Origin: an uncultured virus (IMG/VR IMGVR_UViG_3300042342_001499)
Lineage: Duplodnaviria > Heunggongvirae > Uroviricota > Caudoviricetes
DNA: 64,000 nt
Direction: 5' to 3' (one strand)
IMG/VR virus record: IMGVR_UViG_3300042342_001499
Numbering within the stretch: position 1 is the first letter of the stretch; the number at the start of each line of letters is the position of its first letter. The notes below the pieces were generated by a model. It worked only from the letters and a program-made list of their open reading frames with translations, was not told the origin of the DNA and did no database searches. This document shows, piece by piece, positions 1,253-56,699 of the stretch. The translations under genes and the position numbers were made by a program.

Positions 1253-2119
1253 TTATCCAAGATAAGATTTTAGTAATTTGCTTCTTGTAGAAACCCTGAG
1301 CTTCTTAATGCTCTTCTCTTTTATCTGTCTTGCACGTTCTCTAGAGATCTCTAATTTGTTTCCAATCTCATCTAAAGATATTGGACATATATGATCTATT
1401 CCATAGAACATTTTAATTACATCTTTAGAACGGGGATCTAGTGTGCTAAGGCTCCTTTCTATTTCAATTTTTAATGATTCCTGTATTAACATTCTGTCTG
1501 CTAAAGGAGAATCATTATTAACCAATACTTCAAGCATAGACGAAGAATCTTCGTTACCGCCTAAAGGTGCATCAATAGATGAAGATTTTAATGATGCGGT
1601 AATAGTCTCGGAAACTTTACATTCTAATATATTTAATGCAGCAGAAATCTCTTCGTGTGTAGGCATTCTTTCTAAATCCTGTTCCAATTTACATACTACC
1701 TTATTTATTTTTCCTAATACACCTACTTGGTTCAGCGGCATTCTTATTATTCTTGATTTTTCAGAAAGAGCTTCTAGTATAGATTGTCTGATCCACCAAA
1801 CAGCATATGAAATAAATTTGAATCCCCTAGTTTCGTCGAATTTTTTAGCAGCTTTTATTAAACCCACATTACCCTCGTTTATAATATCTATTAAAGGTAA
1901 TCCCTGATTCTGATATTGTTTAGCAACAGATACGACAAATCTTAAATTTGCTTTAGTTAGCTTCTGTAAAGCATCTTGGTCTCCATTCCTAATTTTTCTT
2001 GCTAATATTGTTTCTTCCTCTGCTGTAATCATCTCTTCTTTTGAAATATCACTCAGATATTTCTCCAAAGACTTATCCGCACGATTAGTAATGGATTGTC
2101 CGATTTTAAGTTGTCTCAT
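1253..2119 (-). CDS. rpoD: RNA polymerase sigma-70 factor, Bacteroidota primary-sigma type
   Basis: MRQLKI..ITNR..SLEKYL N-terminus, NLRFVVSVAKQYQ, GFKFISYAVWWIRQSI (region 2), SRERARQI (region 4.2). No region 1.1. Confidence 0.93.
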   Translation of the reverse strand: MRQLKIGQSITNRADKSLEKYLSDISKEEMITAEEETILARKIRNGDQDALQKLTKANLRFVVSVAKQYQNQGLPLIDIINEGNVGLIKAAKKFDETRGFKFISYAVWWIRQSILEALSEKSRIIRMPLNQVGVLGKINKVVCKLEQDLERMPTHEEISAALNILECKVSETITASLKSSSIDAPLGGNEDSSSMLEVLVNNDSPLADRMLIQESLKIEIERSLSTLDPRSKDVIKMFYGIDHICPISLDEIGNKLEISRERARQIKEKSIKKLRVSTRSKLLKSYLG

Positions 2120-2223: not shown

Positions 2224-3066
2224 CTATTTAATTGCTTCACAAATTCCGCCATCGGAATAAGTTTGATATCCCCGACTTTGAAACCAGTTATAAATTTCTT
2301 CTTTTTTATCCTGTGTTAAATTATAATCTTCAAATATGATAAGATCTGGCAATTTAATCTTGGATTCATCTATACTCATAATCAGCTCAGCATCTAGTCC
2401 TTCCACATCTAAATGTAGCCAATCAATATGCCCTTTGCATTCATTCATAATTAAATCAGTAATACTAATTGATTTTCTTTTCGAAGAACTAATTTCTTCA
2501 GTCTCCCAATGTCTGATAACATTCTCGACAATCGTATTAGTGTATCCCGCGCCTCCTTCAAAAAACTCAACGTCCTCTCCGTTGGTAGTTACTAATTCCT
2601 GTACTGTTTTAACTAGAGAATTATTCTTGTAGTTATTCTTTAATCTATTATATTGTTTATCTGAAGCTTCGACCAGTATAATCTCACACTCTCTTTTTTC
2701 GACAATTGGTACCCATTCTCCAAACTCGCCGTCATGAGTTCCTATAACAAGTCCTCTTGGAAATTTTCCTGCTGATATAATGCTCTTATTAAATATGTAT
2801 AGAGATTTATAAAAATGATTTCCATGCTCCATAATGTCCCATTCTTTTTTATAAACTAGCCTATCTGTGCTATCACATATCTCAACATCGAACATTTCAG
2901 TATTAGGGAAAGTAGCAAACCAATTATCATTTAGCTCGGTTGACCATTGTTCTTCACCACTTACATGTTTTTTTATTTTTAATCTTAGGGGTAAATTTTT
3001 ATTGTATTTACTAATTTCACCTACATTAACTTTAATACCATCAGTGTTATATGTTACAGTAATCAT
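2224..3066 (-). CDS. FkbM-family methyltransferase
   Basis: IGTHDG, LVEAS and WLHLDVEG motifs; sugar-cluster context. Confidence 0.75.
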   Translation of the reverse strand: MITVTYNTDGIKVNVGEISKYNKNLPLRLKIKKHVSGEEQWSTELNDNWFATFPNTEMFDVEICDSTDRLVYKKEWDIMEHGNHFYKSLYIFNKSIISAGKFPRGLVIGTHDGEFGEWVPIVEKRECEIILVEASDKQYNRLKNNYKNNSLVKTVQELVTTNGEDVEFFEGGAGYTNTIVENVIRHWETEEISSSKRKSISITDLIMNECKGHIDWLHLDVEGLDAELIMSIDESKIKLPDLIIFEDYNLTQDKKEEIYNWFQSRGYQTYSDGGICEAIK

Positions 3067-3611
3067 TTTTTATGTTTTTTAATGAAATAATTTATGTCTT
3101 GACTCCACATTATCATAGCATTTTCTTTTATCTTAGTTTCGGTCCAATCCCACCAAGCTATGTCTAATAAGTCAATTATCTGCTGATCTTCAAATCTATA
3201 CTTTAAATGCTTTGCTGGGTTTCCTCCTACAACTGAATATGGCTCAACATCTTTTGTGACTAAAGAACCAGCAGCAACAATTGATCCGTGTCCAATCCTA
3301 ACACCGGACATTATAGTTGATTTAGCGCCAATCCAGACATCACTTCCTATTGTTATATCTCCCTTACAAGAAGGATGTCCCATTCCCATGTGCATTTCTG
3401 CAATCTCATTAGTAACCGGTCCTAGAAGCTGTGAACTTGTTGTTATCCAATCAGATCTATGATTAGCATGTAAAAAGAAATTACAATCCCTACCTATTGA
3501 ACAATACTTTCCAACATTGATCTTGTATTCATCGCTCCAAGAAATTATATTGACATTTCGATCAAAATAAGTTCCTCTGTCCGCATTCCATAAATGTATA
3601 TTTTCTATCAT
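3063..3611 (-). CDS. CatB/Vat-like hexapeptide-repeat O-acetyltransferase
   Basis: VGKYCSIG, KGDITIGSDVWIG, VTKDVEPYSVVGGNPAK, IAWWDW. Confidence 0.88.
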   Translation of the reverse strand: MIENIHLWNADRGTYFDRNVNIISWSDEYKINVGKYCSIGRDCNFFLHANHRSDWITTSSQLLGPVTNEIAEMHMGMGHPSCKGDITIGSDVWIGAKSTIMSGVRIGHGSIVAAGSLVTKDVEPYSVVGGNPAKHLKYRFEDQQIIDLLDIAWWDWTETKIKENAMIMWSQDINYFIKKHKK

Positions 3612-5473
3612 GATATCTCTAATAAATTGTTATATATTTTTACTCTGCTGTTTGTTTTAACTATTTCAACTATATACCTTCTATCTGTTAATTCTATATC
3701 TGATATGTAAAATAACCAATATTGAAATAAGTTCTGATTTTTTAAAGATTCTACCACCTTTCCGTCGATTGTTTTAATAATAAAATCGACATTCTCATTA
3801 ATTTTTTTAGTGCTCAAGAAAGAATTTTTATCGAATGAGATGCTGTTGTCTTTATAGTAAACCAAAATCTCCTCGCAATCAATTACAGAGTTGCCATAAT
3901 CACCTTGGATGTTTTTATACTGCCAATCATGTTTTAATCCATGAAAGCAAAATACATCATTCTGATGACTAGGTAATATTAAATGCTCCGAAAGTTCAGT
4001 TGCATGGAAAGGATGATTCATATCTGTAAATTTAGACATGTTAATGTTTGATGATTCCTCTATATCACATAAATGTAATGATTTATTTAAACCATATTTT
4101 GATAAAATAACATTCGCTGAATCCTCATCATGTAATGTAAAAATACCGGGTCTGCTATCCTTATACTCCTCATACATTTGTAGTTGTTCTTTAAAAAACC
4201 ATTCGGAGTTTTTGTCGAATAACATTACGTTTGTTTTTCTTCTAGGAAATACAGTAACTTCTACGTTTGCTGCTTCTGCTAAAATATCAACAGTACTAGT
4301 CCAGTCTTCACCATCGATTATATTACACAAATACAATCTATCATGAGTGTGTTGATTAATTAGAGGATAATTTTCGAGTTGATTAAAATATGATGCGAAG
4401 TCGTCAGAAGCTGTTGTTAAATACACATCACTATCAATGAATATAAATTTCTTATCCGGTAAGAAATTAATAACATCCACCATTAATCTTGGCTTACAAC
4501 TAATGATATTTTCATCCCTTCCTCTTGAATCTTTCTTTCCTGATTCTATGTCAATTCTTTTAAAGATAAATTGATCACTGGTTAAGAATTTATTTGGTAT
4601 GTTGTAATCAAAATTAATAGAGTAAATTATACATTTTCTATTGGAGTATTTATTTATTGAATCCATTAAGAATGAAATTGTATGGGAATAATTTTCCGTA
4701 AACCCAAACACCCAATAAAAATCGCCAATAAACTTCTTGTCGTATCGTCCAAAGATCTTATTTTCGACTTTTTGAAAAATTGTGTGATCTTTTCTAATGA
4801 AATGATAGAGATGCTTTTCTACATCACCAACTATTAATTTACCTCCACTCCAACAAACATCATAGGTGTTCTTACCTCCATTTTCGGATTCACAATTCAT
4901 TGAATTGAAGATCTTGACCTTGTATTTTTCTTTAGCCAAATCACTTAAAGTATGTTCTTCGTAACACTCAACGTTATCACTTAACATACATCCAATATAA
5001 TCACCTTTTTTATAAAGATCTCGTAAATCTTGAGTATTTTTTATAATTAAAAATGGACCTGCTAATCTATTATGGAAAGTTTCTTCGCCAATAGTAATAA
5101 AATCATAATGATTCAAATATGGTTTTACTCCATTATAGACATCACCGAATAAAGTATCGATATCGTAACAACCGAAATAATCATAATCTACAAGATATTC
5201 CTCAAATATATCACCGAAAGCTGCCTTTAGATCGCAAGTTTTTTTATTATTCGATATCTTAATATTATAGTTTAATTTACCAGACAGTCTTATTTCAATA
5301 TCATCCTTTGTTGTATTAACTACTGTATAGTTTTTAGAATCTAATTTAATATCTTGATCAGTGAATAATATAAAGTCAAACCCAATAATATCTTTCGTGG
5401 TTTCATAATGAAACCAAAAGTAGTCTGGTATTTTACCAAACCAAACTTGTATTAAAACTATTTTATTATTCAT
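3608..5473 (-). CDS. Two-domain glycosyltransferase-like protein (DUF6625-like plus GT-A with DSD)
   Basis: WFGKIPDYF, CDLKAAFG.IF, GCYDIDTLFG in the N-half; CKP and FIFIDSD in the C-half. Confidence 0.65.
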   Translation of the reverse strand: MNNKIVLIQVWFGKIPDYFWFHYETTKDIIGFDFILFTDQDIKLDSKNYTVVNTTKDDIEIRLSGKLNYNIKISNNKKTCDLKAAFGDIFEEYLVDYDYFGCYDIDTLFGDVYNGVKPYLNHYDFITIGEETFHNRLAGPFLIIKNTQDLRDLYKKGDYIGCMLSDNVECYEEHTLSDLAKEKYKVKIFNSMNCESENGGKNTYDVCWSGGKLIVGDVEKHLYHFIRKDHTIFQKVENKIFGRYDKKFIGDFYWVFGFTENYSHTISFLMDSINKYSNRKCIIYSINFDYNIPNKFLTSDQFIFKRIDIESGKKDSRGRDENIISCKPRLMVDVINFLPDKKFIFIDSDVYLTTASDDFASYFNQLENYPLINQHTHDRLYLCNIIDGEDWTSTVDILAEAANVEVTVFPRRKTNVMLFDKNSEWFFKEQLQMYEEYKDSRPGIFTLHDEDSANVILSKYGLNKSLHLCDIEESSNINMSKFTDMNHPFHATELSEHLILPSHQNDVFCFHGLKHDWQYKNIQGDYGNSVIDCEEILVYYKDNSISFDKNSFLSTKKINENVDFIIKTIDGKVVESLKNQNLFQYWLFYISDIELTDRRYIVEIVKTNSRVKIYNNLLEIS

Positions 5474-6383
5474 TTTTTAAAATTTTATTTTCCCAATATT
5501 TTATAAATTCATCAATAGTTCTACCATCTCGTTTTTCTAATTCTAATAAATTATCTTTAACTAACCCAATTGTTTGTTCAGCCCATTTAATATCATTCAT
5601 ACCATAAGCAACCCCGCACATCTGAATTGGATTTTGTAATCGATATTCAATAGGTGTAATATCTTTATTTGGATTTAGTATTATACTTTTAGCCCCGCAT
5701 AATGTAGCTGCGGTAGTATAATAACTTTTATCGTCAAATGTTAAAACATATTCATATTTATTAAATTCATCTAACAAATAATCTAGATCCTTTTTTCCAT
5801 TATAATGTGGTATATCTGTTGACCCTAAATGATTTAAAAATTCTATTCCCCAATCAGGTGTATTTTTATGTATAATATGTCCGAATCCTTTTCGACGCGG
5901 GTTATTAGTATTATAAAATTTATCAAAATTATAATCAAAAACGGTCAATGGAAGTTGTTTGGCCCCTTCAGGTACTTTGAAGGTACCATAATTAAAAATA
6001 ACATCATCAACATTAAATGTATCCCATTGTTCTTGTGAATAATCATGTAATATCCATCTAGAATTGTACATAGTATTAAATTGATTACCATATGTTGTTT
6101 GTGGTGAAATGGATATTGTTCTACTTAAATTGAAATTAAATCCTTCCCATGTAAAATTGTTTCTCCACCCATCATCAAAAATTTCTGAGACATGTGTTGG
6201 TATAACCTCAATATTCTCGTGATTATATTTTGGGTTATTAAACACATAAACATGATGCCCCTTTAAAGCTATCTCATATGCTAATTTATGTAAAGCAAAA
6301 GATGCTCCTTTATTTTCTAACCCGATTGAAATCATCGTGTTAACTATAAAAGTTAATTTATTTTCACTACTCTTTAATAACAT
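5466..6383 (-). CDS. Putative glycosyltransferase (WavQ-like/GT-B-like)
   Basis: GASFALHKLA, YYTTAATLCGAKSI, GVAYG patterns; cluster context. Confidence 0.5.
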   Translation of the reverse strand: MLLKSSENKLTFIVNTMISIGLENKGASFALHKLAYEIALKGHHVYVFNNPKYNHENIEVIPTHVSEIFDDGWRNNFTWEGFNFNLSRTISISPQTTYGNQFNTMYNSRWILHDYSQEQWDTFNVDDVIFNYGTFKVPEGAKQLPLTVFDYNFDKFYNTNNPRRKGFGHIIHKNTPDWGIEFLNHLGSTDIPHYNGKKDLDYLLDEFNKYEYVLTFDDKSYYTTAATLCGAKSIILNPNKDITPIEYRLQNPIQMCGVAYGMNDIKWAEQTIGLVKDNLLELEKRDGRTIDEFIKYWENKILKNE

Positions 6384-6384
6384 A

Positions 6385-6963
6385 TTATTTAATCATTTTT
6401 GTAGGACAACCTACGTAAATTCCGGGTTCTCCAATATGTTTAACAACCGCACTATTCATACCAATTGTGGATAAACTATGAATTGATAATTTTTCTCTTA
6501 TAGATGAGTTATTACCCATATAAACACAATCAAATATTTTAACATTACCAGAAACAATCGCACCCGGCATAGCACTAAAGTAATCTCCTATTTCACAATC
6601 ATGTCCAATGTGATTACCTCTATTTAGAATTGCGTGTTTACCTATCTTTATATTTGTAGTTAAAATTGAATAAGCACCAATAAAACTCCCATCACCTATT
6701 TCAATATTTTCATCCATAATTAAAGCCGTTGGATGAACCCAGCTGAAATATTTTGTTTCTTTAGGTAATCTTTGGGTAATATCAAATCGGTCTTTTGAAT
6801 TAGAAACAGCAACCATTACATCATATTCATTAGGATCAAACTCAGATATTCGATTTGTCCCGTACACAACATATTCGTCGTCAACAAAACAAGTTAATTT
6901 AGCACCCATTTGAGCCATGACTTCTCTTGCGTGTCCACCATATCCGATTAATGCCCTTTTCAT
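6385..6963 (-). CDS. PglD/NeuD-family sugar acetyltransferase
   Basis: IGYGGHARE, HPTA, IGHDC and hexapeptide repeats. Confidence 0.88.
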   Translation of the reverse strand: MKRALIGYGGHAREVMAQMGAKLTCFVDDEYVVYGTNRISEFDPNEYDVMVAVSNSKDRFDITQRLPKETKYFSWVHPTALIMDENIEIGDGSFIGAYSILTTNIKIGKHAILNRGNHIGHDCEIGDYFSAMPGAIVSGNVKIFDCVYMGNNSSIREKLSIHSLSTIGMNSAVVKHIGEPGIYVGCPTKMIK

Positions 6964-7664
6964 TTCTTCTGAATAATAATTTTAATGTTATCGTGAGTAT
7001 CGTAGTGAGCACCAATCAATTTCCAATCAGTAACATTATTTAACACATGTTGATATACATGAGCTCCTTTACCGATCATTGGATATTTAATCACATCGTC
7101 AGCCCTTTGGCCATCGTTATGAAACCATTCAAGATAAGTACCTTGTCGATAATTATCATCGATTATTATAATACTTCCACTCTCCATTTTTGATTCGATT
7201 GATTTGAATTCTTCCCATCCATGTAACGCACTTGGTAACGGATTAAATAAATCAAAATCCCAACTATCTAAATGAACTAAATTTGGGATTTCTTCAAGCC
7301 CCTTTAGAAAAGAAACAGAATCATCAACGTGAATAGAGTAATCTAATCCCGGAATTGCATTTTTAAATATTGCTTTACTTTTTTCTGTAATATCTGGAAA
7401 TATATCAACTGAGATCATTTTACCTCCCGTTTTTTTTGCAACATAACCTAAAAATAAGCCAAATAACCCATCTCCATAACTTGAAGAAGCACCAGTCTCT
7501 AAAAAAATAATATTTTCAAATTTGAAGCTGTCATTTATTGAATCGATTAAAGTTTGACATTGTTTTCTTCGAGTTCCGTGTCCTACAGAATTATCATAAT
7601 CCTGTATTACTCCCCGCATATGATTTAGATAATCCAGGTATCCTTCTAAAAATAATTGTTTCAT
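6960..7664 (-). CDS. Class I SAM-dependent methyltransferase
   Basis: FLETGA, ISVDI, DSVSFL, HLDSWD, IIIDD. Confidence 0.7.
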   Translation of the reverse strand: MKQLFLEGYLDYLNHMRGVIQDYDNSVGHGTRRKQCQTLIDSINDSFKFENIIFLETGASSSYGDGLFGLFLGYVAKKTGGKMISVDIFPDITEKSKAIFKNAIPGLDYSIHVDDSVSFLKGLEEIPNLVHLDSWDFDLFNPLPSALHGWEEFKSIESKMESGSIIIIDDNYRQGTYLEWFHNDGQRADDVIKYPMIGKGAHVYQHVLNNVTDWKLIGAHYDTHDNIKIIIQKK

Positions 7665-7734
7665 TGATTATAAACTTTAAATTTTAATAAATCAGCTCCA
7701 TGATCGTACATAATATTATTAATATATTATTTTA

Positions 7735-8361
7735 TTATTTAATAAACCACCAAGTACCAAACCACTCTTTAGTTAAATTAGGAGTGTATCCATGTTTATT
7801 GCAAAACTCATCAACAGCAGTATTAACACCAAAAATCCCATTATATATTGGAGTACCATCTAATCTTGAGGTATAAATATATTTATCTTTCCCGTTCGGA
7901 GCAAAATTTGGGTCATTATACCAATCCATATTAATATAGTCATGTCCTGAAAAGATACCACCTTTTTTTAACTTTGGGAACCATAAACTAATGTCTTCAA
8001 CAACAAAATCATAAGCGTGATTAGCATCAATAAAAATAAAGTCTAATGACTCGTCTTGAAACATATCCGCAGCGATTTCTGAAGTTGATCTTACCATAAT
8101 ACCTTTATCCTCAAAACCTTTAATATTTTCCATAGTATCTTGATAAGCTTCCATATGATTTTTATGATTACTATCATCCTCATATTCATCACCCAATGGT
8201 CTCCAAACATCAACCATATAAAGGGTTCCTTCCCAGTTGTTTAAAATGTGTTTAGAAAATTCTCCTTTAAACACACCAATTTCAACTCCTTTACCGCTTG
8301 GAATTAATTTTTTTAAATCACTAATTAAATCATATCTATTATCGTATATAATATTATTCAT
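7735..8361 (-). CDS. Class I SAM methyltransferase (Methyltransf_24-like)
   Basis: VEIGVFKG, FIFIDANHAY, GGIFSGHDY. Confidence 0.85.
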   Translation of the reverse strand: MNNIIYDNRYDLISDLKKLIPSGKGVEIGVFKGEFSKHILNNWEGTLYMVDVWRPLGDEYEDDSNHKNHMEAYQDTMENIKGFEDKGIMVRSTSEIAADMFQDESLDFIFIDANHAYDFVVEDISLWFPKLKKGGIFSGHDYINMDWYNDPNFAPNGKDKYIYTSRLDGTPIYNGIFGVNTAVDEFCNKHGYTPNLTKEWFGTWWFIK

Positions 8362-8364
8362 ATA

Positions 8365-8991
8365 TTATTTTATTATTTTATTATTTTTGAATATCGTGAA
8401 TTCAGTTAAATCCCTATAGCCATTCAATTCGCTCATATCCGAATTATGTCTAGGATAATTTTGCATTAAACATAAACCATGTGCAGCTTCCTGTGGCGTC
8501 ATATACATATTCCAGCCAATCATATCGATATTATCATCCTTATAATATTTCTCACTTCTTCCCTCGTATCTTGCACGCTTAAACCAATCTGCTGCATCCT
8601 TATTATCTGTCAATATCATTCCTCCTTTACCTATAGGTAGCTGTTTCTTGATATGAAAAGAAAGACACATAAACGAACTGCTAATATACATGCTGGATGT
8701 TAATCTTTTTGCTGAGTCATAAATAGAATATGGCTTAAGTTGGTATTGGCCTACCCAGTGGTTTGTTTCCTGGTTAGTATCAAAAATGACATCACCTCCA
8801 GCATTTATTATGCTCATAGGCACAGAAAGGTATGTTTTTGATGGTATAGTAACACTACCAACATTTAGGTATTTACAACACAGAAAAATAGCACTAGTGC
8901 AGCTATCAACCGATACAGCGTAGGTTGATCCTGTATATTCAGCAATCTCCTCCTCAAACATCTGCACTATCTTATATGGATTATGTAGCAT
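8365..8991 (-). CDS. Short DegT/DnrJ/EryC1/StrS PLP aminotransferase
   Basis: FEEEIAEY, SCTSA, DSA, SFHIKK..GKGGMILT; only 208 aa. Confidence 0.8.
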   Translation of the reverse strand: MLHNPYKIVQMFEEEIAEYTGSTYAVSVDSCTSAIFLCCKYLNVGSVTIPSKTYLSVPMSIINAGGDVIFDTNQETNHWVGQYQLKPYSIYDSAKRLTSSMYISSSFMCLSFHIKKQLPIGKGGMILTDNKDAADWFKRARYEGRSEKYYKDDNIDMIGWNMYMTPQEAAHGLCLMQNYPRHNSDMSELNGYRDLTEFTIFKNNKIIK

Positions 8992-8993
8992 AA

Positions 8994-10655
8994 TTAATTT
9001 TTTTTTAGAATGTAAAATTTCTTTTCAAATCCACATGATTCAAAAAATCTAATACTCTCATAATTGTCCAATTTTATTTTAGCAAAAGCAGATTTCCAGA
9101 TTTCCATACATTCATTAACCATAAATCTACCAACACCCATTCTTTGAAAATCTGGATGCGTGCAGATCCTAATATCATCATCAATAACACCAATATACCC
9201 GGCAGGTGATCCATCAAATAATGCAACTCGATAATTTTTGCTGTGTACTTTCATATATTCGCTCTGCTCCTCTGCGCTTATATGTGATGTTTTAATAAAT
9301 CCATTAATAACCCTTTCGTCAAGTCTTAATAACCTAACAAATTCCCAATATGTCTCTGAGCATTGTACCAGTTTTATATTTTTTAATTTAACAAGCCAGC
9401 TTGAATCTGAAAATATTCTATCAGGTTTTCCAAAAAATTCATTAACTGCACGTATAACTCCAGGAGAATCTAAATTATAGTCATGACCGCAAATAATCGA
9501 TCCCGGACTCAGTCTTTTTAGTGAAGCCTCTATATCTTTTTTAATATAATCATACTCGTGATTTGCATCTATGTATATTACATCAAGCTCTGGTAGTTCT
9601 GGTAATGCACTCTCAGCATCCATTTTTAATTTGACTATATTCATACCCCTTGTTGCATCATCAAATTTGGTTTCTACTAGTCTGAAGCTATGATTTTTTT
9701 CTATATTCTCATACACGTTCAATTCATCTTCCCATATATCTATAGCGTACATTTTTCTTACCTTGCCTGATTTCATAAACATGCTGGTGCTTTCTCCAGC
9801 ATAACACCCAATCTCACCCATTATAATATTATCTGGTAAGGCTTTAATCAGATCAAGCAGTCCCTGTGTATTAGAGGAATTTCTCATTTCTATTATTTTC
9901 ATATCTTCATTATTATTGGTCCAGAAATCACAATCAAGCCATTCATCATTCACATTATGGCAATTCATTGAATCCTGTACGGTTCCTATTTTTTTAGCCT
10001 CCGAATTTATGAGACTAATTATATCGTCATCACTCTTATATTCTAGCATAGATGGAAAATTATATCTCGAATTTGTAATGGTATTTCTTCCCATTAAACC
10101 CAATTCCCTGACGGTGGTCATTCCCGTTCCTCCATTGAGGTTTATACTTACAAAGCATCTATCGTAATAGTTTTCTTTTAGTGTTTTAGGGGGAAGGTAC
10201 CCATATAGACTACCGGTATTTACATATATGATCTCGTAGTTTATTCTTTCTTGTATCCTGCATATCCTATCAAAATCAAATTCATTCTTTCTTGACTCGA
10301 ATCCAATATAACAATATATTTTATCACCTAACACGTTTGGTTTAAATTCTGAGTAATCTTTAAGCTCCAATTCTACATTCTTAATCTTATATCTTGTATT
10401 CTCTGGTAAGAATGGACTTCCTATAAGGATGATGCTGTCCGAGTATTCTATTCTTTCAAGGAATGTACAATCATATGGACTTATTGGATAGATAATCTTT
10501 AATCCTCTATGATTATTAATGATATCAACCTGCTCTATTCCAAGAAAGAAGCAGGGTTTATTTACATCATTATAATCGTCCAATTTCCATCTATCAAGGA
10601 ATCCTGGCTTAAAGAAGCCAAGGCATCCTGCAACGCTAGTTTGCTCTATTCTCAT
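8994..10655 (-). CDS. Fusion protein: GT-like domain + SAM methyltransferase + GNAT acetyltransferase
   Basis: EIGCYAGES, YIDANHEY, GHDY; C-terminal HPDFQRMGVG and N..SIRFFESCGF. Confidence 0.72.
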   Translation of the reverse strand: MRIEQTSVAGCLGFFKPGFLDRWKLDDYNDVNKPCFFLGIEQVDIINNHRGLKIIYPISPYDCTFLERIEYSDSIILIGSPFLPENTRYKIKNVELELKDYSEFKPNVLGDKIYCYIGFESRKNEFDFDRICRIQERINYEIIYVNTGSLYGYLPPKTLKENYYDRCFVSINLNGGTGMTTVRELGLMGRNTITNSRYNFPSMLEYKSDDDIISLINSEAKKIGTVQDSMNCHNVNDEWLDCDFWTNNNEDMKIIEMRNSSNTQGLLDLIKALPDNIIMGEIGCYAGESTSMFMKSGKVRKMYAIDIWEDELNVYENIEKNHSFRLVETKFDDATRGMNIVKLKMDAESALPELPELDVIYIDANHEYDYIKKDIEASLKRLSPGSIICGHDYNLDSPGVIRAVNEFFGKPDRIFSDSSWLVKLKNIKLVQCSETYWEFVRLLRLDERVINGFIKTSHISAEEQSEYMKVHSKNYRVALFDGSPAGYIGVIDDDIRICTHPDFQRMGVGRFMVNECMEIWKSAFAKIKLDNYESIRFFESCGFEKKFYILKKN

Positions 10656-11296
10656 TGTTTGTATATTTTAAATTTGGACAAATCAGGGTATGGTAATTCC
10701 AAATCAACATTATGTTTTTTAGAGCCATCTAAATTATAAAATTGACTCATCATTAATAATCCTCTCGCAGCTAACTCTGGCATCATATAAAAATTCCACC
10801 CCAGCATATCAAAATTATCATCATGATATGAGCACTCTCTCCTTCCACTAAACCTTGCTCTTTTAAACCATAGCATAGCTTGGTAATCGTCAGTTAAAAT
10901 TGCGCCTCCCTTACTTAATTTTAATGTCTTATAAGGACCAGTAAATGAAAGACACATATGCGATCCCGGAATATACATATCAGCATCAAATCTTAATGCT
11001 GAATCCCAAACATTACTTGGCGATAGCTGATATGCACCTTTAATCTTATCTCCCTTAACAGGAGTAAAATTAACCTTAAGACCTGCATGAATAATCTCAC
11101 ACGGAACTGAGGGGTATGTTTTAGATGGGCAATCTACTTTTCCTGATGATAAACTTTTCTTTATGTTTTTTTCGTAATACAAAGCTAAAAATAAAGCATT
11201 ACTCATGTTGTCCAATGCAATTGCATGAGGTGATCCCGTGTAATCACACAGGGATCTTTCAAAATCTTCAGTAATTTTATGTACTCCTTGTGCCAT
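10652..11296 (-). CDS. Second short DegT-family aminotransferase
   Basis: Paralog of 8365-8991: PSKTYPSVP, WDSA, SFTGPYK..KGGAILT, GWNFYM. Confidence 0.8.
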   Translation of the reverse strand: MAQGVHKITEDFERSLCDYTGSPHAIALDNMSNALFLALYYEKNIKKSLSSGKVDCPSKTYPSVPCEIIHAGLKVNFTPVKGDKIKGAYQLSPSNVWDSALRFDADMYIPGSHMCLSFTGPYKTLKLSKGGAILTDDYQAMLWFKRARFSGRRECSYHDDNFDMLGWNFYMMPELAARGLLMMSQFYNLDGSKKHNVDLELPYPDLSKFKIYKQ

Positions 11297-11297
11297 A

Positions 11298-12311
11298 TTA
11301 ATAAAATTCTATTTCGTTTGCTATGTTTTTAAAATAATCTTCGTATAAGAATACATCATCCTTATCATAAACCATCATTTTTTCAATATTACTATCAACT
11401 ATATGATAGCACCACTCTCCATAAGACAAAAACTCGTGATTCAATTCTATCTGATTTCCATCAGTAAAGACTACAATAATCTTTCTAAAATCTGGTGCTG
11501 GTTTTTTATTAACACTATAAATAGCTACAGTAGGTCTATCCCTAATTAAATAAAAACGTGTGTAACAATCTTTAAATTTTTCATCATAATAAACCTTAGT
11601 GTGTTTTGTGTTTAAATGTGTATCTGAAAATACTTCCCTCAATTCTTCATAGATGTATAATTCGTCAGTATTTGATTTTATTAAATTTTTATACATAAAT
11701 TCTTCCATCGTCACAAAATTACGATTACCATTTTCCCGATTCAAATATTCGATATAGTCCTGCTCGTTACTAATATTCCAAAAATTATTTAAGAAAAAAT
11801 CAATTTCACAAAAGAAATAATGTGCTTCAACTCCACCTTCGCCATCTTTCCCTGTAAAAAAAACACCCTTTTTACTATTTAATTCACAAGAATTATTCAT
11901 CTCTTTAATTCTATTTTTAGTCTCATTACCTAATAGAGCATCATATTCCATCTTATAAAAATGAGTATATCCCAGATCTTTTGCAATTTTTACACCATTA
12001 AATATATTAATTAAAACTGAAAGACCGTGAGGCTGCGAGTGTATAAAAATGTTTGATACTTTAAATGATTCATTAATGGTATAATAACTAACTAATTTGC
12101 TATTATCGAATTCGTATTCACCAGTAAAAAGCTGATTTCTTTTATCATAAAAAAGAAAATCTACTTTATCTTGGGTTTCCTTGGAAATCTTAGTATTGGT
12201 CATTAATAACACATCATCTCCAAAGCTTTTTGACGAATCAAGAAAGTTATTTAAAATTTTTTCATCCACCTCGTCAGTGATAAAAGCATCAAGTATTAAG
12301 ATCGACTTCAT
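11298..12311 (-). CDS. Hypothetical protein, possible GT-A-like enzyme; first gene of the sugar cluster
   Basis: 337-aa ORF; GYTHFYKMEYD resembles a DXD-type motif. Confidence 0.45.
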   Translation of the reverse strand: MKSILILDAFITDEVDEKILNNFLDSSKSFGDDVLLMTNTKISKETQDKVDFLFYDKRNQLFTGEYEFDNSKLVSYYTINESFKVSNIFIHSQPHGLSVLINIFNGVKIAKDLGYTHFYKMEYDALLGNETKNRIKEMNNSCELNSKKGVFFTGKDGEGGVEAHYFFCEIDFFLNNFWNISNEQDYIEYLNRENGNRNFVTMEEFMYKNLIKSNTDELYIYEELREVFSDTHLNTKHTKVYYDEKFKDCYTRFYLIRDRPTVAIYSVNKKPAPDFRKIIVVFTDGNQIELNHEFLSYGEWCYHIVDSNIEKMMVYDKDDVFLYEDYFKNIANEIEFY

Positions 12312-14729: not shown

Positions 14730-15089
14730 CTATATATCCTTTTTTTTATTATTCCTCCTTAGATTTTCTGATCTTGATATTGCTTCTAAATTATTTGGAT
14801 CATCATTATATCGATCTCCATCTATATGTACAATAACGTGACCTTCTGGAATAGCCCCAAATGTTTCCTCGTAAGCAACTCTGGGTCTCCTAGCTCTTTT
14901 TCCTGTACCGTTCCAAAGATAAGCGCAGTCTTTTTTCATTACCTGAACACCTCCACTCCAACATGTATGATTTTCCCCCGTATGGTGATCTCCTTTAGTG
15001 AATACAGTATCGGATTTTCCGTTAACTCCTTTCTTTCCTTTATTCCACGGAATTAATCCTTTAGAGAATTGGCCTTTACTATTTCTCAA
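14730..15089 (-). CDS. HNH endonuclease
   Basis: GQFSKG..PWNKG repeat, VHIDGDRYNDDPNNLEAISRSEN; TTG start. Confidence 0.85.
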   Translation of the reverse strand: MRNSKGQFSKGLIPWNKGKKGVNGKSDTVFTKGDHHTGENHTCWSGGVQVMKKDCAYLWNGTGKRARRPRVAYEETFGAIPEGHVIVHIDGDRYNDDPNNLEAISRSENLRRNNKKKDI

Positions 15090-16738: not shown

Positions 16739-16859
16739 TAGTCAGGACAGGATTCGAACCTCTACGATGATATGACACCATCTACGTTAGCAATTACACT
16801 TGCTCATCTTCGGGATGTGAACCCTTTTACGTTAGCGTCTACCATTCCGCCACCTGACT
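16739..16859 (-). ncRNA. tRNA-Leu-like RNA with expanded central insert (copy 1)
   Basis: Acceptor AGTCAGG/CCTGACT+A, D arm GCGGAATGGTAGACGC, T loop GGTTCGAATCC; 71 nt between D and T arms; no 7-nt anticodon loop. Confidence 0.75.
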
Positions 16860-16871
16860 ATAAAGATCTTT

Positions 16872-17213
16872 TTACAGATCTTTAAAAACACTAAACACTT
16901 CTGAAATAGGTGTTTCATTATTGAACACATGAAGTGTATCACCATTCATTGTTCTAGCTCTCATCTCAATACTAATAGTCTCGTGATTGTAATACATTGC
17001 GTATCTTCCACTTTCAGCATTGAACCAAAGGATATTTCCCATTCCCCCGTCTTTTACGGACTTAACCTCGATATCCCCTTCGGATTTCCAGATCACTGCT
17101 CCCATAAGAGCTAAAGAAATCTCTTGTACGCCCTTAGCGTGGTGATCGGCTCTACCTAGAACACCATTGAAGTAATCTTTCAGCAAATCTGCTGATTGCA
17201 TTTTAACAGCCAT
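16872..17213 (-). CDS. Homolog of Vibrio integron cassette protein Cass14 (VCH_CASS14 family)
   Basis: GVLGRADHHA..V.EI.LAL.GA.IW, N.LW, RYA..YNH...IEMR, recognised from memory of the family. Confidence 0.7.
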   Translation of the reverse strand: MAVKMQSADLLKDYFNGVLGRADHHAKGVQEISLALMGAVIWKSEGDIEVKSVKDGGMGNILWFNAESGRYAMYYNHETISIEMRARTMNGDTLHVFNNETPISEVFSVFKDL

Positions 17214-44585: not shown

Positions 44586-44834
44586 TTAATCTACCCAAAT
44601 CTCTTGGGTTTTCGAAACCGATCTCCATTCGCCAACTTCCAAATCGAAGTAAGCTGTTTGAGCATCGGATATTTTACCACCCTTAGGGTGTTTTAGAATA
44701 GGAACACGTTCAAGGTCCAATGTTCCTAATGCAATGCGTAATGATCCGCCAACCTTTCTGTAATAGAATTTGTACGAACCCGTTTTGAGACCTTTCTTAA
44801 GATCATCATGTGTAATTTTTTTAAAGTCTGCCAT
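44586..44834 (-). CDS. SH3/WYL-like beta-barrel protein (DUF2693-like)
   Basis: F.Y.KV.GS.R.A.GTL...YFDLE..EWRS; start at MADFKK. Confidence 0.75.
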   Translation of the reverse strand: MADFKKITHDDLKKGLKTGSYKFYYRKVGGSLRIALGTLDLERVPILKHPKGGKISDAQTAYFDLEVGEWRSVSKTQEIWVD

Positions 44835-44920
44835 GTTTTTTTTTATTATTTGATTAACTCTATAAATATAAGACAAATCAATTGATTAAAAAAATGATTC
44901 CGTGGAATTTTCTAAAAAAA

Positions 44921-45050
44921 TAGTCAGGACAGGATTCGAACCTGTATAATAACTTATGAGCAGGACTTTCACCGGGTTTTTCAAGGTTACTCCGCGTTAT
45001 CTTTACTATTAACCTTTATTCATAGCGTCTACCAATTCCGCCACCTGACT
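44921..45050 (-). ncRNA. tRNA-Leu-like RNA with expanded central insert (copy 2)
   Basis: Acceptor AGTCAGG/CCTGACT+A, D arm GCGGAATTGGTAGACGC, perfect T arm ACAGG-TTCGAAT-CCTGT; 79-nt centre closed by TATGA/TCATA. Confidence 0.78.
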
Positions 45051-45345
45051 ATTTTATTAAAGTTATTACGATTACTGTTCCTGTTATGTATCCTGCACTC
45101 AGTGCCACTGCATTGAATATTCTCTCACTCCAATTAGTAGCCTCGATCATGTATCCTAGGAATGGTAGACCAAGGAATGGACTAATTGCTGCAAAGAATA
45201 TCATACCTGGTGCATTACCCTCAGACACAAATCTGATATAAAAAGTTGAGCATATCTCAATGACTAATGCTGATATGAAAATTATCAGGTATCTTATGTT
45301 ATATTTAATTTTCACAGATTTCTTTTTCTTCAAAATGTTCAGCAA
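45049..45345 (-). CDS. Three-helix membrane protein
   Basis: Hydrophobic ORF; start uncertain; its TAG overlaps the 5' end of the tRNA-like RNA. Confidence 0.55.
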   Translation of the reverse strand: MLNILKKKKSVKIKYNIRYLIIFISALVIEICSTFYIRFVSEGNAPGMIFFAAISPFLGLPFLGYMIEATNWSERIFNAVALSAGYITGTVIVITLIK

Positions 45346-56453: not shown

Positions 56454-56699
56454 TTACTTAATTATTTTAACCTTCTCTACCGACTCCGCAATCGCTCTCC
56501 ACTCCTTAAGATCCAAATCAAAATAGGGTGTTCCTAAGTGAGCCTTGTTACCTCCCTTTGGATGCCATTCTTCTGGTATTAAATCTAAACGTGTAGTACC
56601 ATATGCCGCTCTCTTTGAACCATCAACTTTTTCGAACTCAAATCTGACTTCTCCTTTAGCTAAACGTTTTTCTAAGACACTTCTTTTAATCTTTCCCAT
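56454..56699 (-). CDS. SH3/WYL-like beta-barrel protein (DUF2693-like), paralog of 44586-44834
   Basis: V.F.FEKVDGS.R.A.GT...HPKGG...YFDLD..EWR. Confidence 0.75.
   Translation of the reverse strand: MGKIKRSVLEKRLAKGEVRFEFEKVDGSKRAAYGTTRLDLIPEEWHPKGGNKAHLGTPYFDLDLKEWRAIAESVEKVKIIK

What the first reader, a model, noticed from the sequence alone, without database searches (positions are those of the whole stretch)
44921..45050. Second tRNA-scaffold RNA with a different 79-nt insert, fused to a gene stop codon
Seen: same acceptor and D arm as copy 1 and a perfect T arm. An anticodon-position stem TATGA/TCATA of different sequence from copy 1 closes a ~60-nt loop containing AAGGTTA/TAACCTT. Its 5' end overlaps the TAG of 45049-45345; copy 1 starts 12 nt after a stop. 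Both lie inside early transcripts and both have TAAA(A)GG just inside the stem. Inference: conserved arms with a replaced centre in two copies 28 kb apart argue for selection on shape rather than decay.
Basis: partly seen in the sequence, partly recalled or inferred. Interest (0 to 1): 0.8.

Follow-up and report, generated by a model that had tools for sequence, protein, structure and literature searches.

The report
Phage tRNA-shaped RNA carrying swappable insert
A large lake phage carries a gene for a 130-base RNA that keeps the upper half of a leucine tRNA but has a conserved 79-base insert in place of the codon-reading arm; it belongs to a big family of such phage RNAs whose job is still unknown.

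Summary
On the minus strand at 44921-45050 lies a 130-nt tRNA-shaped gene (Rfam tRNA 38.1 bits). It shares acceptor, D and T arms with copy 1 (16739-16859) and has a different 79-nt centre. Its first base lies inside the TAG of a conserved small gene.

It is neither a decoding tRNA (ARAGORN 0) nor decay. The same insert recurs in 47 IMG/VR loci whose flanks are unrelated. There the scaffold stems show compensatory changes and the insert is almost invariant.

The scaffold alone defines a family of at least 131 variants, 54-182 nt long, with unrelated centres. Members keep the same flank signature as genuine phage tRNAs (T at -1, C at 74) and the bacterial LeuRS identity set. RNA-library contigs from lakes contain family members.

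Best reading: a non-decoding small RNA cut out by tRNA-processing enzymes, in which the tRNA-Leu chassis gives processing and stability and the insert is the working part. The insert's partner is unknown.

I found no paper describing this family. This scan met the family before on other DNA.

The parts
44921..45050 (-). Copy 2: 130-nt non-decoding tRNA-Leu-shaped RNA gene (whole element)
   Evidence: RF00005 38.1 bits, model positions 1-71. ARAGORN finds no tRNA. 47 related loci.
45044..45050 (-). Acceptor stem, 5' strand AGTCAGG. A1 and G2 double as the last two letters of the upstream gene's TAG.
   Evidence: Compensatory changes in relatives.
45025..45041 (-). Leucine-type D arm (GCG/CGC stem, loop with GG)
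   Evidence: Family-wide A14 130, A15 129 and GG 133 of 149.
44946..45024 (-). 79-nt insert ('payload') replacing the anticodon and variable arms; almost invariant in relatives
   Evidence: Alignments A2 and A4. Helix counts.
44996..45001 (-). GATAAC, 5' strand of the best-supported insert helix
   Evidence: Paired with 44948-44953 in 29 of 29 sequences: one compensatory and three wobble-compatible changes. Also chosen by RNAalifold.
44948..44953 (-). GTTATT, 3' strand of that helix. It is directly preceded by the invariant CTCATAA (44954-44960), which reads like a Met/Ile2 anticodon loop but is not closed as a 7-nt loop.
   Evidence: The resemblance to a Met/Ile2 anticodon loop is recalled, not tested.
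45010..45016 (-). AAGGTTA, which can pair with TAACCTT (44983-44989). With the helix above this would form a pseudoknot.
   Evidence: Invariant core of 5 pairs; outer pair unpaired in 12 of 29; no compensatory change. Structure unresolved.
44929..44945 (-). T arm ACAGG-TTCGAAT-CCTGT
   Evidence: Three T-stem pairs show compensatory changes in relatives.
44921..44928 (-). Acceptor 3' strand CCTGACT plus discriminator A. It is followed here by TTTTTTT rather than the family's usual C-A/T-A.
45049..45345 (-). Upstream small gene whose TAG overlaps the RNA's 5' end
   Evidence: 149 homologues, mostly 82 aa, named 'hypothetical protein' where a source names them. No Pfam or PHROG family.
44586..44876 (-). 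Downstream gene, WYL_2 (Sm-like SH3 barrel) family; ORF start 44 nt after the RNA
   Evidence: PF10902, E 2.9e-12. Not a recurrent neighbour: 0 of 91 downstream ORFs of family members.
16739..16859 (-). Copy 1: 121-nt sister RNA with the same chassis and a different, three-hairpin insert
   Evidence: RF00005 29.1 bits. 12 related loci. Covariation in two insert hairpins.

Best explanation
Copy 2 is a gene for a non-decoding, tRNA-shaped small RNA. It belongs to a large phage family built on a leucine-tRNA 'chassis'.

Proposed mechanism:
1. It is transcribed on the minus strand together with the small genes around it.
2. Its tRNA upper half (acceptor stem, D arm, T arm, discriminator A, U at -1) lets the host's tRNA-maturation enzymes cut it out as a discrete, stable molecule. 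These would be RNase P at the 5' end and the tRNA 3'-end enzymes plus the CCA-adding enzyme at the 3' end.
3. The chassis keeps every bacterial leucyl-tRNA-synthetase identity element that can be read from sequence, so the RNA may also be charged.
4. The 79-nt insert is the working part. It is a folded, nearly invariant module that acts in trans by sequence-specific recognition of a conserved partner, a protein or an RNA of host or phage. The partner is not identified.
5. Cutting at U|A would remove the stop codon of the upstream gene's mRNA, so excision should also shut that message down.

Shown:
- the anatomy
- family membership
- selection on scaffold pairing and on insert sequence
- flank signature shared with genuine phage tRNAs
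- presence in RNA libraries

Inferred:
- cleavage, CCA addition and charging
- action of the insert in trans
- the effect on the upstream mRNA
For: **tRNA shape.** The tRNA model matches over its whole length, with a 62-nt insertion at the anticodon arm.

**Not a decoder.** ARAGORN finds no tRNA in the window. Among 150 family elements ARAGORN calls a minority as tRNAs, with assorted anticodons (at least 25; the listing was cut at 25).

**Family.** These give 131 distinct elements of 54-182 nt with unrelated centres, often several per contig. The same arm hits only 20 stretches in one genome each of 185,579 species, all of them on MAG contigs, so it is not a host tRNA.

**Selection, copy-2 type.**
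- 47 loci hold this insert.
- Similarity to the window is confined to the element in all of them.
- In 29 distinct sequences, 9 pairs (8 scaffold, 1 insert) changed on both sides, against 2.4 in shuffles, 0 of 500 shuffles reaching that. 98.2% of cells are paired, against 24-41% when partners are slid.
- Most insert columns are invariant.

**Selection, copy-1 type.** 15 pairs changed on both sides, against 5.8 in shuffles, including 6 in two insert hairpins.

**Processing signature.**
- T at -1 in 110 of 131 scaffolds and in 90 of 127 canonical tRNAs of the same loci.
- C at position 74 in 128 of 131 scaffolds and in 124 of 127 canonical tRNAs.
- CAA and CTA are the commonest trailers in both sets.

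**LeuRS identity set, of 149 elements**: U8 143, A14 130, A15 129, D-loop GG 133, U48 126. A73 is present in all, but the search pattern imposed it. In E. coli, A73, A15-U48, G18G19 and the D/T-loop contacts are needed, the anticodon and long variable arm are not, and truncated tRNA-Leu lacking both arms is still charged (PMC9976931, passages read).

**Expression.** Four lake metatranscriptome runs from four studies hold contigs over the element. One 132-nt RNA-library contig is another family member, with a 19-nt centre, at word depth 560; contigs over the neighbouring genes have depth 7-15. At least five different centres are joined to the same arms.

**Independence from tRNA clusters.** A 115-kb record rated 99% complete gives no canonical tRNA match. 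It carries the identical copy-2 RNA and a second scaffold RNA.
Against: - No discrete processed RNA, 5' or 3' end, or CCA tail has been seen. The RNA evidence is from contigs only. The tool warns that DNA can sit in RNA libraries and that contig depth is a poor measure of expression.
- In this window copy 2 lacks the family's usual C at 74 and is followed by seven T. Its 3' maturation may therefore differ.
- Folded alone, copy 2 is no more stable than shuffles: z -0.92, with 43 of 200 shuffles folding as well.
- The insert's fold is unresolved, because it hardly varies. There is only one compensatory change, and the three candidate helices can coexist only as a pseudoknot.
- No partner is known. 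There is no recurrent neighbouring gene: 9 of 91 downstream ORFs have a Pfam family and all nine differ. Complementarity to the window's sense strand is no more than chance: longest 11 nt, with shuffles reaching at least 11 in 160 of 200.
- No motif is shared across centres.
Confidence: 0.55

Rival explanations
1. Pure 'punctuation'. The element acts only in cis as a tRNA-like cutting and stability signal that separates the messages of neighbouring genes, as tRNAs and t-elements do in organelles. The centre is a passenger.
For: - Elements are intergenic and on the same strand as their genes.
- The median gap from the upstream stop is 18 nt.
- The single commonest spacing is an overlap with the TAG, as in copy 2 (12 of the 111 elements that have an upstream ORF).
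- The flank signature is the same as in genuine tRNAs.
- Centre length is unconstrained, 54-182 nt.
Against: - A passenger would drift. The copy-2 centre is almost invariant over 29 distinct sequences whose scaffold stems do vary.
- The copy-1 centre keeps two hairpins through compensatory changes.
- The same centre recurs next to unrelated genes.

This role does not exclude the best explanation: cutting is part of it.
Confidence: 0.2
2. A DNA-level role. The conserved arms are handles for recombination, or the ends of a mobile cassette, that shuffle genes and centres between phages. The tRNA likeness is a relic.
For: - L220 and L225 hold a 130-nt element identical to copy 2. As in all 47 loci, their similarity to the window stops about 15 nt beyond it.
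- In L190/L191 the orthologue of copy 1's upstream gene (76% identity over 524 nt) is followed by a copy-2-type centre, and homology stops 8 nt past the element.
- All four scaffolds on one contig share the same variant acceptor.
- Arrays of RNA-gene-RNA occur.
Against: - Stem changes are compensatory, so RNA pairing is kept.
- The nucleotides needed for the tRNA elbow (U8, A14, the D-loop GG, the T loop) are conserved.
- Family members are present in RNA libraries, one at high contig depth.

Recombination at the arms is more likely a side effect that explains how centres get swapped.
Confidence: 0.12
3. A working tRNA after all. The invariant CTCATAA next to the GATAAC/GTTATY helix would be a CAU anticodon loop, with the extra sequence removed or tolerated.
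For: CTCATAA and the 6-bp helix are invariant or compensated in 29 sequences. The chassis is fully tRNA-like.
Against: - It would need two separate insertions, 23 nt before and 35 nt inside the would-be anticodon arm.
- No group I intron or other Rfam family matches.
- 79 nt is far below the size of self-splicing introns (established knowledge).
- ARAGORN finds nothing.
- Other family members have quite different centres, many with no 7-nt loop at all.
- Only 2-3 nt would be left for the variable region.
Confidence: 0.05
4. A decaying tRNA-Leu pseudogene hit by an insertion.
For: Leu-type D arm. The related record G001 carries a cluster of 24 canonical tRNA genes.
Against: Conservation over 47 loci, compensatory changes, two intact copies in one genome, and presence in RNA libraries.
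Confidence: 0.02

Closest known systems
Bacteriophage T4 small stable RNAs, species 1 (rnaC, 139 nt) and species 2 (rnaD, 119 nt)
   Same: Phage-encoded RNAs of about 120-140 nt, annotated only as 'small, stable RNA'. rnaC ends in a canonical T arm with an acceptor-like stem.
   Different: - The T4 RNAs sit inside the tRNA cluster; copy 2 stands alone among small genes.
- rnaC and rnaD do not match the tRNA model. The best hit is tRNA-Sec at 17.5 bits, E 0.76.
- They have no Leu-type D arm.
- blastn of the copy-2 region against 50,697 phage records, T4 among them, finds nothing.
- No family with one chassis and many centres is known for them, as far as I recall.
Plant mitochondrial t-elements and the organelle 'tRNA punctuation' model (PMC1920247; search listing and abstract start only)
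   Same: tRNA-like structures between coding regions that serve as RNase P/Z cutting marks for mRNA ends.
   Different: As I recall, t-elements are minimal acceptor/T-arm mimics with no conserved cargo. Here a full D arm and a conserved, folded 79-nt module are kept, and the host is a phage.
Engineered 'tRNA scaffold' for producing recombinant RNA in E. coli (PMC3753655; search listing and abstract start only)
   Same: The design is the same: the anticodon arm of a tRNA is replaced by an RNA of interest, so that the cell processes and stabilises it. This description of the design is recalled.
   Different: That scaffold is man-made. This one is a natural, diversified family.
YrlA-type bacterial and phage Y RNAs (PMC4201824; search listing and abstract start only)
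   Same: Non-coding RNAs that mimic tRNA and also occur in phages.
   Different: As I recall, the tRNA-like module of YrlA is internal, and the RNA's two ends form the Ro-binding stem. No Rfam family other than tRNA matches here, and Pfam shows no Ro/TROVE gene in the window.
Canonical bacterial or phage tRNA-Leu
   Same: Acceptor/T-arm geometry, Leu-type D arm, A73, and the same flanks as the phage's own tRNAs.
   Different: No anticodon stem-loop and no long variable arm. The record G001's own tRNA-Leu(UAG) has a different acceptor stem, GCCCAGG.

Membership tests
tRNA (Rfam RF00005), as a decoding tRNA | Acceptor, D and T arms with conserved tertiary nucleotides | tested here: met
   38.1 bits against a cut-off of 29, model positions 1-71.
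tRNA (Rfam RF00005), as a decoding tRNA | 5-bp anticodon stem with a 7-nt loop at the standard place; total length about 70-95 nt | tested here: not met
   62 extra bases replace the arm. 130 nt in all. ARAGORN finds 0 genes.
Bacterial tRNA-Leu identity (LeuRS substrate) | A73, A15-U48, G18G19, U8-A14 and D/T-loop contacts; anticodon and variable arm not required (PMC9976931, passages) | tested here: met
   All are present in copies 1 and 2. Family-wide, 126-143 of 149 for each. This is a sequence test only.
Bacterial tRNA-Leu identity (LeuRS substrate) | Actual leucylation | not testable with these tools
   Needs an in vitro charging assay.
Intron-bearing tRNA (group I intron in the anticodon loop) | A self-splicing intron core, recognisable by Rfam, which leaves a canonical tRNA once removed | tested here: not met
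   No intron family at E up to 10 in the region or up to 1 in the window. The centre is only 79 nt.
Intron-bearing tRNA (archaeal bulge-helix-bulge type) | A BHB motif at positions 37/38 | not tested
   No explicit BHB search was run. With introns allowed, ARAGORN was run only on other family elements and gave scattered, inconsistent calls.
tmRNA | A tRNA-Ala-like domain plus a tag reading frame | tested here: not met
   ARAGORN's tmRNA search finds none. No Rfam tmRNA match.
T4 species 1 / species 2 RNAs | Sequence or model similarity to rnaC or rnaD | tested here: not met
   No blastn match of the copy-2 region in the phage collection. rnaC and rnaD are not hit by RF00005.
Phage tRNA-Leu-chassis RNAs with variable centres (defined in this scan; no paper found) | AGTCAGG/CCTGACT-type acceptor, Leu-type D arm, canonical T arm, A73, and a non-tRNA centre of variable length | tested here: met
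   Copies 1 and 2 carry the exact arms shared by 131 distinct IMG/VR elements.
Phage tRNA-Leu-chassis RNAs with variable centres (defined in this scan; no paper found) | Flanks like genuine phage tRNAs (T at -1; C at 74) | tested here: inconclusive
   Copy 2 has T at -1 but TTT after A73. Copy 1 has T at -1 and CAA.

The most novel reading that the evidence does not exclude
Phages run a natural 'tRNA-scaffold display' system.

- One leucine-tRNA chassis is cut out by RNase P and the tRNA 3'-end enzymes. It may be CCA-tailed and charged by LeuRS, since that enzyme ignores the anticodon.
- The chassis carries a library of interchangeable RNA payloads. These could be decoys, sponges or aptamers aimed at host factors such as defence or translation proteins.
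- The identical arms double as recombination handles, so payloads can be swapped between loci and between phages.
- Where the RNA abuts a stop codon, as it does here, its excision also beheads the upstream message.
Probability: 0.3. Interest if true: 0.85.

Novelty: new variant of a known kind. Interest (0 to 1): 0.7.

Why it matters
tRNA look-alikes that do not decode are known only as scattered cases: the T4 stable RNAs, still without a function as far as I recall, organelle t-elements, Y RNAs and viral 3' ends.

This is different in scale and design. It is a large, diversified and apparently expressed family in uncultured lake phages. One tRNA-Leu chassis carries many unrelated, individually conserved RNA modules, the same design that engineers adopted to make stable RNAs in bacteria.

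If the payloads bind host factors, the family would be a new layer of phage-host conflict run by small RNAs. It would also be a ready-made catalogue of natural RNA modules.

It also bears on annotation. These genes are missed by ARAGORN, or called as tRNAs with odd anticodons.

Tried and rejected
- **Conserved protein partner.** The WYL_2 (Sm-like) gene just downstream of copy 2 looked promising. None of 91 downstream ORFs of family members has it. Only 9 of 91 have any Pfam family, and all nine differ.
- **Antisense target in the phage.** The longest complement of either insert to the window's sense strand is 11 nt. Shuffles reach at least 11 in 160 of 200 (copy 2) and 119 of 200 (copy 1). 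Only 64 kb was tested, and no host genome.
- **Shared motif across centres.** K-mer enrichment in 133 dereplicated centres gave only weak signals: GTAA-type loops, AAGGT 22 against 10 expected.
- **Mini-ORF in the insert.** ATG AAT AAA GGT TAA is there, but the ATG is lost in L190 and L226 and the following TAG varies. Rejected.
- **C at 74 as a scaffold-specific mark.** I first read it that way. That was an artefact: ARAGORN ends one base past the discriminator in 123 of 127 cases. Redone, genuine tRNAs show the same C.
- **Terminator or promoter role.** No consensus site falls on either copy.
- **Counting scaffolds per genome with RF00005.** The search misses known members, for example the identical copy in G004, so it gives no reliable count.
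- **Close relatives among named phages.** None found by blastn.
- **Parts of the stretch without RNA-contig cover.** Positions 45116-45216 have no cover. No conclusion drawn.
- **Host.** 10 of the 20 genome-contig hits (8 of 18 contigs) are binned as Bacteroidota. MAG binning of phage contigs is unreliable, so this is only a hint.

Full report
**1. What is there**

Read on the minus strand, window 45050 to 44921 spells, in order:
- a 7-bp acceptor stem (AGTCAGG ... CCTGACT)
- U8 and G9
- a leucine-type D arm (GCG/CGC stem, loop with GG)
- 79 nt that resemble no tRNA part
- a perfect T arm (ACAGG-TTCGAAT-CCTGT)
- discriminator A

Rfam's tRNA model matches end to end at 38.1 bits (cut-off 29), with 62 bases inserted where the anticodon arm belongs. 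ARAGORN finds no tRNA or tmRNA anywhere in the window. A permissive Rfam scan of all 64 kb gives only this element and copy 1 as tRNA-like, and no other credible family.

Copy 1 (16739-16859, minus strand, 121 nt) scores 29.1 bits and has one mismatched T-stem pair. The two copies are identical over the arms except for one D-loop base and two T-stem bases. Their centres do not align.

The first two bases of copy 2 are the AG of the TAG that ends ORF 45049-45345. That ORF is a real gene, with 149 homologues, mostly 82 aa. Copy 1 begins 12 nt after a stop codon. The strand is minus.

**2. The genome**

The window is AT-rich (30-41% G+C) and almost wholly coded on the minus strand. It carries:
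- a sigma-70-type factor
- sugar- and methyl-transferases
- a CobT/AAA pair
- many small ORFs without a family

No named phage matches by blastn. The nearest held record, G001, is a 154-kb viral contig rated 66% complete. It holds copy 1 with 100% identity over 1001 bases, and a cluster of 24 ordinary tRNAs 77 kb away. It does not contain the copy-2 region. DNA runs that hold the stretch come from lake water.

**3. A large family**

After removing duplicates there are 131 different elements of 54-182 nt. They share the same acceptor and mostly the same D arm, and have unrelated centres.

The same 22-mer occurs in only 20 stretches among one genome each of 185,579 prokaryote species. All 20 are on MAG contigs, and 10 are binned as Bacteroidota. 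The chassis is therefore phage-specific and not a copy of a host tRNA gene.

ARAGORN calls a minority of these elements as tRNAs, with anticodons scattered over many amino acids (at least 25 of 150; my listing was cut at 25). That is what chance loops would give.

Elements are intergenic and co-oriented with genes. For the 111 of 152 elements that have an upstream ORF of at least 50 aa:
- the median distance from stop codon to element is 18 nt
- the commonest single spacing is the TAG overlap seen in copy 2 (12 of 111)

**4. Selection on copy 2**

I searched IMG/VR with a pattern taken from the insert, which leaves the chassis free. This gave 47 loci. A further pattern, anchored at the D-arm/insert junction, added more divergent members.

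blastn and tblastx of 3.2 kb around copy 2 against those 47 loci match only the element itself. The query span never exceeds 1533-1695, and the element lies at 1551-1680. Two contigs (L220, L225) carry a 130-nt RNA identical to copy 2.

I aligned 29 distinct sequences. L189, L205 and L261 were left out because each has a one-base insertion in the T arm or acceptor. L214 and L221 were left out of this second alignment because of large D-loop hairpin inserts. In this alignment:
- 98.2% of cells of the proposed structure are paired, against 24-41% when partners are slid
- 9 pairs changed on both sides, against 2.4 in shuffles, 0 of 500 shuffles reaching that
- eight of those nine pairs lie in the acceptor, D and T stems; one sequence (L193) has an almost wholly different, still complementary acceptor

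The insert is nearly invariant. The RNA is under selection, and the centre is under tighter sequence constraint than the arms.

**5. Fold of the insert**

Three helices fit the sequences.
It is broken in 2 and has no compensatory change.
The outer pair is unpaired in 12 of 29.
- *GATAAC/GTTATY.* RNAalifold also chooses it. It is paired in all 29, with one compensatory change (A-U to G-C in L264) and three wobble-compatible changes.

The third helix crosses the first two, so all three can coexist only as a pseudoknot. Folded alone, the RNA is no more stable than shuffles (z -0.92). I leave the fold open.

Directly 5' of GTTATY lies the invariant CTCATAA. This reads like a Met/Ile2-type anticodon loop (recalled), but it is not closed as a 7-nt loop.

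**6. Copy 1 has a different fold**

Twelve loci hold the copy-1 insert. In 10 distinct sequences, 15 pairs changed on both sides, against 5.8 in shuffles, 0 of 500 reaching that. The insert contains:
- a hairpin of type AGYRA-loop-TYRCT: 2 covarying pairs, 100% paired
- a hairpin with a GTCAT loop: 4 covarying pairs, 96% paired
- an invariant T-loop-like hairpin, GGG-TTCRCAT-CCC

My column assignment for the closing stem was poor (57% paired). That reflects MAFFT register shifts, and I do not count it either way.

Across the family, 8 of 149 centres contain a second T-arm-like hairpin, against 0.6 expected (maximum 3 in 200 shuffles).

**7. Processing and charging signals**

| Feature | Scaffold elements | Canonical tRNAs in the same loci |
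|---|---|---|
| T at -1 | 110 of 131 | 90 of 127 |
| C after the discriminator | 128 of 131 | 124 of 127 |
| CAA trailer | 51 | 64 |
| CTA trailer | 30 | 19 |
| CCA trailer | 4 | absent from the 12 commonest trailers listed |

My first reading, that C74 is special to scaffolds, was wrong. ARAGORN's end coordinate lies one base past the discriminator in 123 of 127 cases. The scaffolds therefore carry the same flank signature as genuine tRNAs of these phages. This is the best available argument that they go through the same maturation.

Copy 1 follows the rule (T at -1, CAA). Copy 2 has T at -1 but is followed by TTTTTTT, as is one other subgroup (L196 type).

The chassis keeps these nucleotides, out of 149 elements:

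| Nucleotide | Count |
|---|---|
| U8 | 143 |
| A14 | 130 |
| A15 | 129 |
| GG in the D loop | 133 |
| U48 | 126 |
| A73 | 149 (imposed by the search pattern) |

According to the passages I read in PMC9976931:
- E. coli LeuRS needs A73, the A15-U48 pair, G18G19 and the D/T-loop contacts
- truncated tRNA-Leu lacking both arms is still charged

A Leu chassis is thus exactly the part of a tRNA that could lose its lower half and stay chargeable. Charging itself is untested.

**8. Expression**

Four lake metatranscriptome runs from four studies hold contigs over the element and its neighbours. Several RNA-library contigs join the same two arms across other, shorter centres. Five such centres of 19-27 letters are listed. 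One of these contigs, 132 nt long, has word depth 560, while contigs over the neighbouring genes have depth 7-15.

These are contigs. They cannot show ends or strand, depth is a poor measure of expression, and DNA can be present in RNA libraries. I take this as a hint that family members are abundant RNAs, not as proof.

**9. How centres get replaced**

- *Concerted change within a genome.* Scaffolds in one genome share acceptor variants. On one contig all four carry AGTC(C/T)T(G/A) ... CAGGACT, which is two compensated pair changes relative to the common form.
- *An orthologous site with a different centre.* In L190/L191 the orthologue of the gene upstream of copy 1 (a VCH_CASS14-family gene; 76% identity over 524 nt) is followed by a copy-2-type RNA, and homology to the window stops 8 nt past the element.

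Together with the unrelated flanks in section 4, this points to exchange by recombination within the identical arms. It explains 'same arms, replaced centre' mechanically. Because pairing is kept by compensation, I read it as a by-product of RNA-level selection and not as the primary function.

**10. What it most likely does**

I commit to a processed, stable, non-decoding RNA whose chassis provides excision, stability and possibly charging, and whose insert is a trans-acting module (confidence 0.55).

The anatomy, the family, the selection and the flank signature are shown. Cleavage, CCA addition, charging and action in trans are inferred.

One consequence is specific to copy 2. RNase P cutting between U(-1) and A1 would leave the upstream mRNA without its stop codon, so excision should inactivate that message. 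This is inference.

Searches for a partner failed:
- no recurrent neighbouring gene
- no complementarity beyond chance within the window
- no motif shared between centres

**11. Comparison with what is known**

The closest natural cases are the T4 stable RNAs. rnaC (139 nt) ends in a T arm with an acceptor-like stem, but it is not hit by the tRNA model and shares no sequence with copy 2. Organelle t-elements share the cutting-mark idea and lack cargo. The engineered tRNA scaffold shares the design.

I found no description of this family:
- Five full-text searches found none.
- PMC10690425 catalogues 10,006 candidate structured RNAs in viruses. The passages I read mention five tRNA-like candidates, none of them a Leu chassis with variable centres.
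- I did not read that paper's supplementary tables, so they may list members.

Earlier notes of this scan describe the same family on other genomes. Within the scan this is a repeat sighting. It adds the insert-anchored conservation test, the flank signature shared with real tRNAs, the orthologous-site swap and the RNA-library evidence.

**12. Verdict**

It is a new variant of a known kind, the tRNA-like non-coding RNAs. Its function is unknown. Interest 0.7.

Noticed in passing
window 16860-16885 (minus strand), and L190 just upstream of its element: An 8-bp inverted repeat (AAAGATCT ... AGATCTTT) spans the stop codon of the gene upstream of copy 1 and ends 3 nt before the RNA. The same motif precedes the copy-2-type RNA in L190/L191.
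   Followed up: partly
loci L001-L357 (phage tRNA genes): Genuine tRNA genes of these lake phages are followed by C-A/T-A and almost never by CCA. C is at position 74 in 124 of 127; CAA 64, CTA 19. This is an unexplained, conserved 3' trailer signature.
   Followed up: partly
G004 (contig of L220), 114,929 bp, rated 99% complete: This phage gives no canonical tRNA match at E<=0.01. It carries an RNA identical to copy 2 and a second scaffold RNA. The two flank an MGS-like-domain gene in the order RNA-gene-RNA.
   Followed up: partly
L214:1438-1593 and L221:1426-1575: Two copy-2-type RNAs carry an extra hairpin of about 25-30 nt inside the D loop. The chassis therefore tolerates a second insertion site.
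   Followed up: no
window 44586-44876 and 56454-56699 (minus strand): Two small WYL_2 (Sm-like SH3 barrel) proteins. One starts 44 nt downstream of copy 2. The pairing does not recur in the family.
   Followed up: yes
window 16872-17213 (minus strand): The gene just upstream of copy 1 belongs to the 'integron cassette protein VCH_CASS1' family (PF18315, E 8e-27). A gene family known from mobile cassettes sits next to a swappable RNA.
   Followed up: no
window 2224-12311 (minus strand): A block of sugar- and methyl-modifying genes: FkbM-type and other methyltransferases, two hexapeptide acyltransferases, a GNAT fusion and DUF6625. Two short ORFs (208 and 214 aa) each match only the N-terminal part of DegT-type aminotransferases, so they are possibly truncated or split.
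   Followed up: no
window 1253-2119 (minus strand): A full-length sigma-70-family factor (regions 1.2, 2, 3 and 4) encoded by the phage.
   Followed up: no
window 44963-45304, seen in RNA run X16: One 669-nt contig of a relative skips 340 nt, with 21 other letters in between. The skipped part covers the upstream small gene, the 5' arm and most of the insert. This is a deletion variant or an assembly joint.
   Followed up: no
window 14730-15089 (minus strand): An HNH_3 endonuclease gene 1.6 kb downstream of copy 1. I saw no link to the RNA.
   Followed up: no
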